This document shows, one piece after another, positions 21,001-24,000 of a stretch of 64,000 nt of DNA (the stretch's first letter is position 1; the number at the start of each line of letters is the position of its first letter). The stretch lies in the NCBI RefSeq assembly GCF_045037415.1, contig NZ_CP173440.1, one strand, 5' to 3'. The position numbers are program-made. This stretch comes from Escherichia coli (lineage in GTDB: Bacteria > Pseudomonadota > Gammaproteobacteria > Enterobacterales > Enterobacteriaceae).

Positions 21001-24000
21001 TTGATGAAACCGGCCATACCGGACCGAACCTTTTTGACAGCACTCAGCCGATACTGTCCTACGGCGTGCTGTCCTCACCCGATGATCTCGATACTGTCGC
21101 GGAGCCTGCCCTCGCTGCGCTGCGTAAAAAAATGGGGGTGGTGCGACTGCACGCCGCCGAACTGGGTATGCACCGCCTGGATAACGTCATCGATACGTTA
21201 CTGGTTCTGCAGAAAAAGCACCGTATCCGCTTTGATATCTGGCAGGTGGTCAAACGCGATCACGCCATCATTTCCTTCTTCGATCAGGTGTTTGACCAGG
21301 GGATGAATCCGGTGGTGCCCTGGACGGCCTACTGGACCCCGCTTCGCTATCCCCTGCTGATAAATCTGGCCCGGCTGTTTGATGATGAGCTAGCGGAAAA
21401 AGCCTGGCGCGCCCGTCTGGAAGCCCACGATGGCCGGTCGGCGGCGTTGTTGGGGGAAGTCTGCAGCGTACTGCTTTCACGTGTCGGGATGCTGGGCGAT
21501 CCCCGTTTCATTGAAATTGTGACTGATGCGCTGTCGTGGGCAATGGCCCACTTTGATGAACTCAGCTACAACTGCAAAACCAATAAAGAAAAACTGCAGA
21601 TCATGCCAAACATGATTGGCTTTCAGTCCGTGCTTCATGGGATCTGCCACCGGCTAGGCGCTCCCAACCGCAAGGCCCGCATCATTGTTGATCAGCAATC
21701 GCAGTTCAACACCACCCAGCGGGAGTTGAGCGTATTTTATCGTCAGATTCGCGCTCAGCCATGGGAGCTGGGGCCAGGTCTGCCGGTGATGGACATGAAA
21801 AACATGCCAGAGCAACCGCTGGTCTTCCAGTCTGGTACGCAGAGCGCCGGACTGGAACTGGTTGATCTCTATCTGTGGATCTTCAAACGCTTTATGGAAG
21901 GTAAAGAACTAACCCGGCCGCTGACACGCCTGGTTTATACCAACCGGCATACCTCTATCACCTCCAGCGTGTCACTGGACGCGATCGGCAAACAGTTTAA
22001 AGCGTTCATGGAGACCCTGCCGGAGCCAACGGCGGACATGTTGCAAAAAGGGCGTGAACTTCAGGCCCGGGAAGAAGCCCGCCGTCTGCAGCACCGGGTT
22101 CCCGGTTTCACTAGCATCTGACCGGCGGGTAGCACGATGGAAAATCAGGAGCACCTGACGCTGATCCACTCGCTGATCAAAACCCACGCCTTCAACGGTT
22201 ATACCCTAGTCAGCACGAAGTACTGGCAGACGCCCTCGGTCAGTGACATTTCCGTGGTCCGGGGGCTGATCCCCCTGACTGACCTGGAGCTGGCCCACCG
22301 GCTGGCGGTGGACCCACGAACTATCCGCAAATGGAAATCCGGTCAGACACAGATGGTGTTCACCACCTGGTGCTGTCTGTGCTGGCTGGCCGGGCTGGGC
22401 ATGCCGCTGGATAACGAAATCAGCGACTGAAGACGCGACGGTAGATACGGCGGAAAATATACCGGCGGTAATATCGCCAGCTGCATGTCCAGATATAGGG
22501 AAGCTCGTCAAAGTGGGTTAAGAACCAGGTGAGGCTCCGGTACGCTACGACAACGGCCCAGATGAACTTACCGATGGCGATGAGGGTGAGGATGACAGTA
22601 AATACTGCTGCGATAAATGTAGACATAGTGTTCTCCTTTATGTCCGGGTTGATGTGCAGGTATTTACTGTTGACGAGTGGACTTAAAGGCCGCTTTTCCG
22701 CAAAAAGTGAAAATAAATTCGTTTTTCGCCTTTTATTGCCGTTATGTATTGAATAAGACAGAACCTTTGTTGATTACGCATTAATGCCGTTTTTGCAATA
22801 ATTTTTCACTTTATTTCTTATTTTGTTCGCAATGTCTCTGTTTCGTTCCTCAGATCCGAAAAAAGGTAGTTCCGGATCTCAGTAAAATCGTATGAATTTT
22901 GAGTTGTCTCCACTCCTTCCCTTTTTCAAAATGTTATCTATAACTGGCTGAGGAACTTCACTGCTGCGGAGGCTAATTTGGGCGTAAAAATTACAGGTAT
23001 AGATAAATTGCAGAAACAATTGAAAGAAGTTGAGGAAGCGGCTGAAACCCTTAACGGTAGTTATCCGGTAAGTTTTGATGCAAACGATCCTGTCAGCATT
23101 GAAACTGCGATTCAGGAAGCGTACAGCATGTTGGAGGAGCGAGCCTCACGGTATGCCGCTAATCCGATGATTAGTCCCATGATCGAGGCCATGAAAGAGG
23201 ATTTGCGTCAGCAAATTCTGGATAGTGCCGAACAGCAAAGACAGGAGAACGGGCAGGATGGCAATTGACATTTTTCAGTCACTCAAAAATTGTGTGTATG
23301 ATTTGCAGCGTGCTGATGCACAGAACTATCAGCAACCACTGAAACAACTGGCCCGGCTCCTGAACGACGGTAATCTACAGGCTGTTAACGAACGCCTGAC
23401 ATGTGATGTCGATCTTGACGCCTTTCTGGCGAAAAGTCATGAAACCGAATCCAGTATGGCCGGCTCCGCCATCCTGCAGTGGCCTGAAGAACCGCGTGAA
23501 ATTTTAGGCCTGAAGCTTTTGTTAATCAGGAAAATGTCCGTTAACGATAATTTCGCATTCAATTTTTGCCACACGTTTTTCTATGACCGAAAAATTATTG
23601 AATCTGTCCGTAAGTTCACATCCTCGTTACTGGTAACTTTTGTTCGCGACTACCAGCTGTATGTTGAGAATGAATCCGATCCTGATCCGGTAGTAATACG
23701 TCAGGTCTCGCGCAAAATTTTTATTGTTCACGGCCATGATAATGATGCCCTTCAGTCTGTTGCCCGCTTTATATCCCGGATAGGGCTGGAGGAAATCATT
23801 CTCTCTGAACGTCCTGATGGCTCAAGGACTGTAATCGAGAAATTTGAAGCGGAGTCAGGAGATGTCAGCTTTGCCATAGTGCTGATGACACCCGACGACA
23901 GTGGAAATGCCCTGGCATCTGAAAACACACGACTGCGTGCACGCCAGAATGTCCTGTATGAACTGGGATATTTCGCGGGTAAGCTTGGGCGCGGGAAAGT

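What the first reader, a model, noticed from the sequence alone, without database searches (positions are those of the whole stretch)
22420..22626. Unannotated-looking small membrane protein with a textbook RBS, convergent with the HTH gene
The minus-strand 68-aa ORF has AAAGGAG, a 6-nt spacer, then ATG. It encodes one strongly hydrophobic helix (FIAAVFTVILTLIAIGKFIWAVVVAY) followed by an Arg-rich tail (RYYRRYIFRRIYRRVFSR). This resembles small membrane-depolarising toxins or holin-like peptides; its 3' end overlaps the HTH gene by about 10 nt.
Basis: seen in the sequence. Interest (0 to 1): 0.4.

Follow-up and report, generated by a model that had tools for sequence, protein, structure and literature searches.

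The report
Conserved small membrane protein beside repressor
The 68-codon ORF is a real, conserved but uncharacterised gene for a small membrane-anchored protein that always sits tail-to-tail with a repressor-like gene in the variable, phage-defence regions of about 2% of sequenced enterobacterial plasmids; its function (possibly a repressor-controlled harmful membrane protein) is untested.

Summary
A 68-aa ORF lies at 22420-22626 (-), with AAAGGAG, a 6-nt spacer and ATG, and overlaps the HTH gene by 11 nt. It is not unannotated: RefSeq lists it as WP_004213077.1, hypothetical protein.

It is a genuine gene. Homologues down to 34% identity keep the frame, ATG and RBS; dN/dS is about 0.13-0.3 with synonymous sites near saturation.

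The family is an orphan: 27 clusters among 1.84 billion representatives, no Pfam, NCBIfam, PHROG, PADLOC or PDB match, and none in 50,697 phage genomes.

In 17 of 17 loci from seven genera it lies convergent with a ~96-aa XRE-type HTH gene labelled "korC". That gene follows a swappable partner: DUF3800, DUF4238 or one of two unnamed families.

A palindrome (GGCCTTAAAGGCC) sits at a fixed distance upstream of the small gene in 15 of 15 loci and overlaps the likely -35.

The protein is predicted as an N-terminal membrane helix, a kink at an invariant D-x-L-P, and a basic, aromatic-rich cytoplasmic helix. That helix is under about twice the constraint of the membrane segment.

Best reading, inferred and not shown: a repressor-controlled, kil-like membrane protein. 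The holin reading is not supported, and toxicity is untested.

The parts
22420..22626 (-). Small gene 'C': 68-aa predicted N-out/C-in membrane-anchored protein (WP_004213077.1)
   Evidence: ORF present. Annotated as hypothetical. Under purifying selection in this frame. AF2 model is helix 2-39, kink at D40/L42/P43, helix 41-66, pLDDT 80.7. Hydropathy and charge asymmetry.
22633..22639 (-). Shine-Dalgarno AAAGGAG, 6 nt before the ATG
   Evidence: Read directly. AAGGAG or AAGGAA is conserved at the same distance in all homologues.
22679..22691 (.). Operator-like palindrome (GGCCTTTAAGTCC here; consensus GGCCTTAAAGGCC), 65 nt upstream of the ATG
   Evidence: Present once per locus at a fixed -55 or -66 in 15 of 15 loci, and nowhere else in them. 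The window copy is the most degenerate, with 2 mismatches.
22661..22666 (-). Invariant TAAATA(C) block, candidate -10 element; a 16-18 nt spacer puts the -35 inside the palindrome
   Evidence: Invariant in the alignments. A stringent sigma-70 scan found no consensus promoter, so this assignment is inferred.
22627..22880 (-). Conserved ~255-nt upstream region of the small gene, starting at hairpin AGATCCGGAA...TTTTCGGATCT (22852-22879) and holding an ATTATTG repeat (22796-22802)
   Evidence: Alignment of 10 loci. No extended conserved RNA structure. No Rfam match. Absent in L007 and L022, which keep only the palindrome-proximal ~75 nt.
22137..22430 (+). Gene 'B': 97-aa XRE/Cro-type HTH protein (WP_004213076.1, called 'korC' by sources), convergent with the small gene and overlapping it by 11 nt
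   Evidence: AF2 pLDDT 88.6, all-helical. Foldseek hits to HigA2, Aca1/2, HipB, 434 repressor and C.Kpn2I. Strict co-occurrence with the small gene.
20988..22121 (+). Gene 'A': DUF3800 protein (377 aa), the swappable upstream partner of the HTH gene
   Evidence: Pfam DUF3800. In other loci it is replaced by DUF4238 or one of two unnamed families.

Best explanation
The ORF is a genuine gene for a small inner-membrane-anchored protein. Its N-terminal ~25-residue helix is predicted to span the membrane with almost nothing exposed outside. A kink at the invariant D-x-L-P motif follows. A ~25-residue Arg/Lys- and aromatic-rich helix is predicted to lie on the cytoplasmic side and carries the conserved function.

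The gene forms an invariant two-gene core with the convergent XRE-type HTH gene ('korC'-labelled). This core accompanies interchangeable defence-type genes (DUF3800, DUF4238, two unnamed families) in the variable regions of enterobacterial plasmids and ICE-like islands.

Proposed mechanism (inferred): the HTH protein binds the 13-17-bp palindrome that overlaps the -35 of the small gene's weak promoter and keeps it off. When the repressor is absent or inactivated, the small protein is made from its strong RBS. This could happen on entry into a new cell, on plasmid loss, or after a phage-triggered signal. The protein then inserts in the membrane, and its basic aromatic tail acts at the inner face of the membrane or on a membrane-proximal target, slowing or killing the cell. 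This is a kil/kor-like or abortive-infection-like effector.

The two genes converge with no terminator between them, so transcription of the small gene would also run antisense into the repressor gene. That would reinforce a switch-like behaviour.

Shown here: gene reality, architecture, linkage, and the conserved palindrome. Inferred: repressor binding, regulation, toxicity and trigger.
For: Coding:
- dN/dS 0.13-0.3, Fisher p ~1e-8, only this frame open, RBS and ATG conserved.

Membrane anchor and topology:
- Kyte-Doolittle 19-residue maximum of 2.1-2.5 at residues 3-23.
- Net charge +1 in residues 1-28 against +7 to +10 in the tail.
- 9-13 aromatic residues in the tail.
- AF2 helix-kink-helix with the break at the invariant D40/L42/P43.
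- The tail is more constrained than the membrane segment.

Linkage:
- The small ORF is convergent with every HTH homologue of at least 55% identity, in 17 of 17 loci from Klebsiella, Escherichia, Enterobacter, Pectobacterium, Morganella, Yersinia and Pantoea.
- Collection-level counts are similar: about 1,350 plasmids carry the small ORF and about 1,290 carry an HTH of at least 60% identity.

Operator:
- The palindrome is at a fixed distance in 15 of 15 loci and is unique within each.
- It is the only upstream element retained in L007 and L022.
- The HTH has the XRE fold of proteins that bind palindromic operators: Aca1, HipB, 434 repressor, C-proteins, HigA2.

Context:
- DUF4238 alone protects against T7 (PMC9122126).
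- DUF3800 is an RNase H-like domain linked to retrons and Cas12a2.
- The IncI1 hypervariable region holding 'two korC genes' also carries the Abi gene ibfA (PMC12111858).
- A TIR (PDC-S35) gene and a PifA-like KAP NTPase gene flank the module in the window.

Precedent:
- IncP kil genes are harmful unless repressed by Kor regulators.
Against: - There is no experimental evidence of transcription, translation, toxicity or repressor binding. No published data were found.
- No consensus sigma-70 promoter was found.
- The membrane helix is the less conserved part, which is unlike pore-forming toxins.
- The palindrome occurs only at the small gene and not upstream of the partner-HTH operon, so the usual autoregulatory arrangement of such repressors is not seen.
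- The HTH N-terminal region does not track the partner family, so a signalling link from partner to repressor is unsupported.
- One IncI module has lost the small gene (L004 remnant) and one copy has a premature stop (L014), so the gene is dispensable at least when a second copy is present.
- The window's own palindrome is degenerate.
Confidence: 0.4

Rival explanations
1. Non-toxic accessory or adaptor. The small protein is a membrane anchor whose conserved basic, aromatic cytoplasmic helix binds the HTH protein, the variable partner, or a host or plasmid factor. It would modulate or localise that partner, as small membrane regulators such as MgrB or ToxS do, rather than harm the cell.
For: - The tail is about twice as constrained as the membrane helix.
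- The HTH C-terminal helix TTWCCLCWLAGLGM is nearly invariant and unusually hydrophobic for a surface helix.
- Gene linkage is strict.
- 98% of the MTVFL-type copies align over at least 80% of the query, so there is no sign of strong counter-selection.
Against:
- Convergent genes with separate promoters and an operator-like palindrome suggest regulation of one gene by the other, not co-expression of partners.
- The comparison with MgrB and ToxS is from my own knowledge and was not tested.
Confidence: 0.25
2. Type I toxin-antitoxin. The small hydrophobic protein is a toxin whose mRNA is controlled by an antisense RNA. That RNA could be the 3' end of the convergent HTH transcript or an sRNA from the conserved upstream region. 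The module would stabilise the plasmid by post-segregational killing.
For: - Small hydrophobic protein with a charged tail.
- Convergent 3'-overlapping transcription units.
- A conserved ~255-nt upstream region.
- No terminator between the genes.
- Plasmid location next to other TA genes (vapBC, ccdAB).
Against: - No match to Hok/Gef, Ldr, TisB, Ibs, Fst, GhoT or any other Pfam family.
- The leader has no extended conserved RNA structure and negligible covariation.
- No Rfam sRNA match.
- No promoter-like or terminator-like signals for an sRNA.
- L007 and L022 lack most of the leader yet keep an intact gene.
- At 65-68 aa with a conserved 40-aa cytoplasmic domain, it is atypical for this class.
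Confidence: 0.12
3. Holin or lysis peptide, as the first reader suggested as an alternative.
For: One transmembrane helix plus a highly basic C-terminal tail, which is superficially holin-like.
Against: - Absent from 50,697 phage genomes.
- No PHROG or Pfam holin match.
- No endolysin or spanin neighbours in any of 17 loci.
Confidence: 0.02
4. Spurious ORF. The conservation would reflect non-coding constraints, such as the HTH gene's 3' region or regulatory DNA, not a protein.
For: Synonymous variation is reduced in the adjacent 3' half of the HTH gene, so some nucleic-acid-level constraint exists nearby. Many database entries are truncated or frameshifted.
Against: - Frame-specific purifying selection with synonymous sites near saturation.
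- The other five frames contain stops.
- The RBS and ATG are conserved.
- The overlap with the HTH gene is only 4-11 nt.
Confidence: 0.03

Closest known systems
kil/kor circuits of IncP-1 plasmids (KorC repressing the kilC and kilE operons: klcA, klcB, kleA, kleE)
   Same: A plasmid-borne small HTH repressor, labelled 'korC' by NCBI and UniRef, lies next to a gene with a GC-rich-arm, AT-centre palindrome at its promoter. Kil genes are harmful when not repressed.
   Different: - Identity to IncP KorC was not tested. The nearest annotated relatives outside the family are only ~30% identical HTH regulators on ~63-kb Klebsiella plasmids.
- The target here is a single convergent small membrane-protein gene, not an operon that includes the repressor.
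- No autoregulatory operator copy was found.
- Lethality was not tested.
Type I toxins (Hok/Gef, TisB, Ldr, TxpA, BsrG and others)
   Same: A small protein with a hydrophobic helix and charged tail, on plasmids, with convergent overlapping transcription as in txpA/ratA and bsrG/SR4 (that comparison is from my own knowledge).
   Different: - No sequence relationship.
- Longer, at 65-68 aa.
- The conserved part is the cytoplasmic tail.
- No conserved structured leader or sRNA signal.
- The partner is a protein regulator.
XRE-family antitoxins and controllers (HigA2, HipB, Aca1/Aca2, C-proteins of restriction-modification systems), for the partner gene
   Same: The HTH model matches these folds. 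Like HigA2 it has an N-terminal extension before a C-terminal HTH. These proteins bind short palindromes to control a harmful gene.
   Different: - Foldseek E-values are all above 0.1 and sequence matches are sub-threshold.
- The controlled gene is convergent, not in the same operon.
- The upstream partner varies among four unrelated families.
Single-gene DUF4238 defence (P2 hotspot, anti-T7) and DUF3800 effectors of type VII retrons and Cas12a2 loci, for the swappable partner
   Same: The same Pfam domains occur in the partner position. The setting is a mobile-element variable region.
   Different: The published systems are not described with an HTH plus small-membrane-gene pair. No PADLOC model matches the plasmid DUF3800, DUF4238 or small proteins.

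Membership tests
Type I toxin-antitoxin toxin | Small (<~60 aa) hydrophobic membrane peptide | tested here: met
   65-68 aa, at the upper edge of the range. Kyte-Doolittle maximum 2.1-2.5 over 19 residues. Long N-terminal helix in the model.
Type I toxin-antitoxin toxin | Homology to a described toxin family (Hok/Gef, Ldr, TisB, Ibs, ShoB, Fst, etc.) | tested here: not met
   No Pfam, NCBIfam or PDB match for any of 13 members.
Type I toxin-antitoxin toxin | Antisense or divergent small RNA antitoxin, often with a structured 5' UTR controlling translation | tested here: inconclusive
   No Rfam hit. No extended conserved structure or covariation in the leader. No sRNA promoter or terminator signals. 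The convergent HTH mRNA could still overlap the 3' end. RNA data are needed.
Holin | Encoded in a phage or prophage lysis cassette next to an endolysin | tested here: not met
   Absent from 50,697 phage genomes. No lysis genes in 17 loci.
Holin | Membership of a holin sequence family | tested here: not met
   No Pfam or PHROG match.
kil/kor-type repressor-controlled harmful gene | Adjacent HTH repressor with a palindromic operator at the target promoter | tested here: inconclusive
   XRE-fold HTH. Palindrome fixed at -55 or -66 and overlapping the inferred -35 in 15 of 15 loci. Binding was not tested.
kil/kor-type repressor-controlled harmful gene | Target gene is deleterious when the repressor is absent | not testable with these tools
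   Needs induction or deletion experiments, or Tn-seq showing the HTH gene is only dispensable when the small gene is disrupted.
kil/kor-type repressor-controlled harmful gene | Repressor is an orthologue of IncP-1 KorC | not tested
   The name 'korC' comes only from source annotations. No NCBIfam or Pfam KorC model matched. The IncP KorC sequence was not compared.
Type II toxin-antitoxin (XRE antitoxin plus toxin) | Toxin and antitoxin co-transcribed in one operon, autoregulated from its own promoter | tested here: not met
   The small gene and the HTH gene are convergent. The palindrome is not found upstream of the HTH operon.
Catalogued anti-phage defence system component | Match to a PADLOC model | tested here: not met
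   The small protein, HTH, DUF3800 and DUF4238 proteins have no significant PADLOC hit. Only the neighbouring TIR proteins match candidate PDC-S35.

The most novel reading that the evidence does not exclude
The HTH gene, the small membrane gene and the palindrome together form a portable control-and-execution cassette shared by at least four unrelated defence genes. The swappable upstream protein would sense infection. The XRE repressor would be removed from its operator. The convergent small gene would be switched on, its transcription also silencing the repressor operon by antisense read-through, which makes a toggle. The membrane protein would then abort the infection. This would be a transcriptionally wired, modular abortive-infection architecture on plasmids, including the Klebsiella virulence plasmid.
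Probability: 0.12. Interest if true: 0.75.

Novelty: new variant of a known kind. Interest (0 to 1): 0.45.

Why it matters
The gene pair sits on roughly 2% of sequenced plasmids in PLSDB. These include the hypervirulent Klebsiella pneumoniae virulence plasmid (about 590 near-identical copies) and common IncI1 and IncF resistance plasmids of E. coli and Salmonella.

Nobody has named or studied the small gene. If it is a repressor-held harmful membrane protein, it could influence plasmid stability, establishment after conjugation, or phage resistance of clinically important strains.

If it is the shared effector or adaptor for interchangeable defence genes, it would show how plasmids package and regulate immunity modules. 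It also gives DUF3800- and DUF4238-type defence genes a conserved, testable genetic partner.

Tried and rejected
- **Rfam scan of 20000-24500 at E up to 5:** only chance-level hits and none of the DUF3800-associated RNA motifs, so no known RNA lies here.
- **Consensus folding of the 240-250-nt leader from 8 loci:** only two short hairpins and essentially no covariation. I dropped the idea of a structured type-I-toxin-like 5' UTR.
- **Terminator search between the convergent genes:** one chance-level hit inside the ORF. A hairpin inside the HTH gene lacks a U-tract and is not consistently conserved (z = -0.83).
- **Sigma-70 consensus scan:** no promoter at stringent settings. The -10 and -35 assignment is therefore only inferred from conservation.
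- **Operator copies elsewhere:** none upstream of the partner-HTH operon.
- **Cassette-like terminal repeats:** only sporadic partial second copies of the leader, consistent with decayed tandem modules. There are no defined ends.
- **Literature:** searches by protein accession and for korC plus defence found no study of the small gene. The Salmonella small-protein Ribo-seq census supplements contain no matching peptide.
- **Known-family and phage searches:** no Pfam, NCBIfam, PHROG, PADLOC or PDB relationship for the small protein. No phage homologue.
- **HTH C-terminal segment as a membrane helix:** I considered TTWCCLCWLAGLGM as a membrane segment. I rejected this because the confident AF2 model packs it as the last helix of the XRE domain.
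- **Not attempted:** a complex prediction of the HTH with the small protein (no structure jobs left), and a direct comparison with IncP-1 KorC.
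Full report
**Where the window comes from.** The 1.3 kb around the finding is 100% identical to Klebsiella virulence-plasmid (pLVPK/pVir-type) sequences carried in E. coli transconjugants. In the annotated records the local gene order is:
- rmpA2;
- a transposase fragment and a restriction-endonuclease fragment;
- vapBC;
- a DUF3800 gene;
- a 97-aa hypothetical gene;
- the 68-aa hypothetical gene on the opposite strand;
- a YuaX-family gene;
- a TIR-domain gene;
- a KAP-family P-loop NTPase;
- pifC.

**Checking the observation.** The ORF is exactly as described. The ATG is at 22626-22624 on the minus strand and the stop codon ends at 22420. AAAGGAG lies at 22639-22633 with a 6-nt spacer. 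The ORF encodes 68 aa containing the quoted peptides. It overlaps the convergent 97-aa gene (22137-22430) by 11 nt. The ORF is not unannotated: PGAP calls it WP_004213077.1, hypothetical protein. The exact sequence is recorded on at least 1,000 contigs, always as 'hypothetical protein'.

**Is it a real gene?** Translated searches of 72,556 plasmids found near-identical copies in about 590 Klebsiella plasmids. They also found relatives at about 73% identity and many at 34-40%. I extracted the homologous ORFs from 17 loci.
- 16 are intact at 65-68 aa.
- One (L014) has a premature stop.
- All start at a conserved ATG preceded by AAGGAG or AAGGAA.

Nei-Gojobori analysis gives dN/dS of 0.13-0.3 for well-diverged pairs, with synonymous differences near saturation. 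Examples are window-L003 at 0.15, L004-L007 at 0.13 and L004-L010 at 0.16. Fisher p is about 1e-8 to 1e-9. Third positions vary most (0.48 against 0.31 and 0.26). Only this frame of six is stop-free in all sequences. A spurious ORF is therefore excluded.

**How wide is the family?** A profile search of 1.84 billion representative proteins found only 27 clusters. All belong to two subfamilies, MSTF... (the window type) and MTVFL.... Many of the entries are truncated or frameshifted. The MTVFL type occurs in 763 plasmid records, and 745 of them align over at least 80% of the query. Together the two types are on about 1,350 plasmids, or about 2% of PLSDB, mostly conjugative IncF, IncI and IncR types. 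One of them (NZ_MW590592, H102) is a Salmonella enterica plasmid from chicken gut of 96,685 bp. That matches the size and source reported for pUA1135 in the IbfA paper, so I take it to be that plasmid. No member matches any Pfam, NCBIfam, PHROG or PADLOC family, or any PDB sequence. Neither subfamily occurs in 50,697 phage genomes. It is an orphan family specific to Enterobacterales mobile elements.

**The protein.**
- The N-terminal ~25 residues are strongly hydrophobic (Kyte-Doolittle 19-residue mean of 2.1-2.5). Only one or two residues precede them.
- Residues 1-28 carry a net charge of +1. The remaining ~40 residues carry +7 to +10 and include 9-13 aromatic residues.
- By the positive-inside rule (established knowledge), this predicts an N-out/C-in single-pass anchor.
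- AlphaFold2 with a 13-sequence alignment gives a helix at 2-39, a break at D40/L42/P43, and a second helix at 41-66 (pLDDT 80.7).
- The break coincides with the invariant D-x-L-P motif.
- The tail is the more constrained part. Amino-acid identity is 69% against 46% for the membrane segment, and pN/pS is 0.32 against 0.65.
- Within the membrane segment only G19 is invariant.

This pattern points to a specific interaction by the cytoplasmic helix, with the hydrophobic helix acting mainly as an anchor.

**The invariant partner.** Every locus with a homologue of the 97-aa gene at 55% identity or more has the small ORF immediately convergent, with the 3' ends overlapping by 4-11 nt. This includes loci where the small ORF is not annotated. 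The hosts are Klebsiella, Escherichia, Enterobacter, Pectobacterium (a chromosomal ICE-like island next to TraG), Morganella, Yersinia and Pantoea.

The 97-aa protein is labelled 'korC' or 'YiaG-like regulator' by the sources. Its AlphaFold2 model is confident (pLDDT 88.6) and all-helical. The nearly invariant TTWCCLCWLAGLGM segment is packed as the last helix. Foldseek hits are weak in E-value but uniformly XRE/Cro HTH proteins that bind short palindromes: HigA2, Aca1/Aca2, HipB, 434 repressor, C.Kpn2I and ImmR.

**The swappable third gene.** The gene immediately upstream of the HTH gene, often overlapping it by 4 nt, varies between loci:
- DUF3800 (window, L003, L006, L010, L013 and the second module of L004);
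- DUF4238 in two subtypes about 50% identical (L004, L005, L011, L014, L018);
- a 340/378-aa family (L016, L021);
- a 421/426-aa family (L007, L022).

These families have no detectable similarity to each other. DUF4238 alone protects E. coli against T7 (PMC9122126). DUF3800 is an RNase H-like domain attached to type VII retrons and Cas12a2 loci (PMC7736814, PMC10910872). In IncI1 plasmids the 'two korC genes' lie in the hypervariable repA-parA region that also carries the abortive-infection gene ibfA (PMC12111858). In the window the module is flanked by a TIR protein matching PADLOC candidate PDC-S35 and by a PifA-like KAP NTPase. The setting is therefore a plasmid defence island. The HTH N-terminal region does not track the partner family. 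The conserved unit is the HTH gene plus the small gene.

**Regulatory region.** About 255 nt upstream of the small gene is conserved among most loci. The region contains, in order:
- a hairpin, AGATCCGGAA-N8-TTTTCGGATCT (window 22852-22879);
- up to three direct GATTRTTGC repeats;
- a T-run;
- the palindrome CCGGCCTTAAAGGCCG;
- an invariant TAAATAC;
- the RBS.

The palindrome lies at exactly -55 (MTVFL type) or -66 (MSTF type) from the ATG in 15 of 15 loci. It occurs nowhere else in those loci. L007 and L022 retain only the palindrome-proximal ~75 nt, which defines the minimal conserved control region. If TAAATA is the -10, a 16-18-nt spacer places the -35 inside the palindrome. That is a standard repressor-operator layout, but it is an inference. 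A stringent sigma-70 scan finds no consensus promoter. The window's palindrome is the most degenerate copy, GGCCTTTAAGTCC.

The leader shows no extended conserved RNA structure and no Rfam match. No convincing terminator separates the convergent genes. Each transcript is therefore expected to run antisense into the other gene. Synonymous variation in the 3' half of the HTH gene is about half that of the 5' half. This hints at an extra nucleic-acid-level constraint or at recent exchange of this segment.

**Interpretation.** The following points are firmly established here:
- The ORF is a conserved, translatable gene for a membrane-anchored small protein with a conserved basic cytoplasmic helix.
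- It is invariantly paired with an XRE-type regulator gene.
- It has an operator-like palindrome at its own promoter.
- It lies in mobile-element defence regions next to interchangeable defence-type genes.

The most economical mechanism is a kil/kor-like arrangement. The HTH protein would repress the small gene through the palindrome. Loss or inactivation of the repressor would release a membrane-acting protein that harms or arrests the cell. Convergent transcription could add switch-like behaviour. IncP kil genes, which are harmful unless Kor-repressed, are the closest precedent. I put this at about 0.4.

The main rival, at about 0.25, is a non-toxic adaptor whose conserved tail binds the HTH or another factor. 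It is favoured by the stronger constraint on the tail and by the rarity of disrupted copies. A classical type I toxin-antitoxin system (about 0.12) lacks the expected RNA features. A holin (about 0.02) is contradicted by context and by absence from phages.

**Novelty.** Small membrane proteins under repressor control are a known kind. This family, its strict convergent pairing with a 'korC'-type XRE gene, and its association with swappable defence genes have not been described in the literature I could search. I class it as a new variant of a known kind, of moderate interest. Its presence on the hypervirulent Klebsiella plasmid and on common IncI and IncF resistance plasmids raises that interest.

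Noticed in passing
window 24724 (within 24206-26432, minus strand): The PifA-like KAP-family P-loop NTPase gene is split into two overlapping ORFs (175 aa and 624 aa). The cause is a single extra T at 24724 relative to the intact 741-aa gene annotated in L001 (WP_004215174.1). This is either a frameshifted pseudogene or a sequencing error in this copy.
   Followed up: yes
window 22978-24157 (+); L004 5645-6748: A YuaX-family gene (96 aa) overlaps the start of a TIR-domain gene (CAP12/Pycsar-type TIR). The TIR gene strongly matches the PADLOC candidate system PDC-S35 (E = 8e-66). The same TIR family is the first gene of the DUF4238-HTH operon in IncI plasmids. TIR, DUF4238, DUF3800 and the HTH/small-gene pair therefore recur together.
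   Followed up: partly
window 20551-20571; L013 region upstream of DUF3800 (+1721..+1832 from the small-gene ATG); L004 2114-2239: Partial second copies of the small gene's upstream 'leader' lie upstream of the partner gene in some loci. These include a 21-nt exact remnant of the hairpin arm in the window, between vapB and DUF3800. L004 has two modules in tandem, and one retains only the C-terminal 42 codons of the small gene. This suggests arrays of such modules that decay or recombine at this element.
   Followed up: partly
leader of the small gene, e.g. L011 -196/-165/-148 from the ATG; window 22796-22802: Up to three direct repeats of GATTRTTGC, plus an inverted GCAACAAAT, lie 150-200 nt upstream of the small gene. 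Only one copy remains in the window. They look like protein-binding sites in the divergent promoter region. No function has been assigned.
   Followed up: partly
window 22290-22430 (3' half of the HTH gene): Synonymous-site variation in the C-terminal half of the HTH gene is about half that of the N-terminal half (roughly 0.2 against 0.45). The encoded TTWCCLCWLAGLGMPLD segment is almost invariant. This could reflect an overlapping RNA or DNA element (the 3' UTR of the small gene's transcript) or recent exchange of this segment.
   Followed up: partly
L003 4197-4491; L014 small ORF (3470 downward): Individual modules show decay. The HTH gene of the IncR plasmid NZ_CP021741 is frameshifted while its small gene is intact. 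The small gene of NZ_CP019890 has a premature stop at codon 33 while its HTH gene is intact.
   Followed up: no
window 18984-20380: A frameshifted transposase fragment and an N-terminally truncated restriction-endonuclease fragment precede an intact vapBC toxin-antitoxin pair, just upstream of the module. A homologous vapBC-like pair (PIN + MazE-type antitoxin) also lies upstream of the module in the Yersinia plasmid L021.
   Followed up: no
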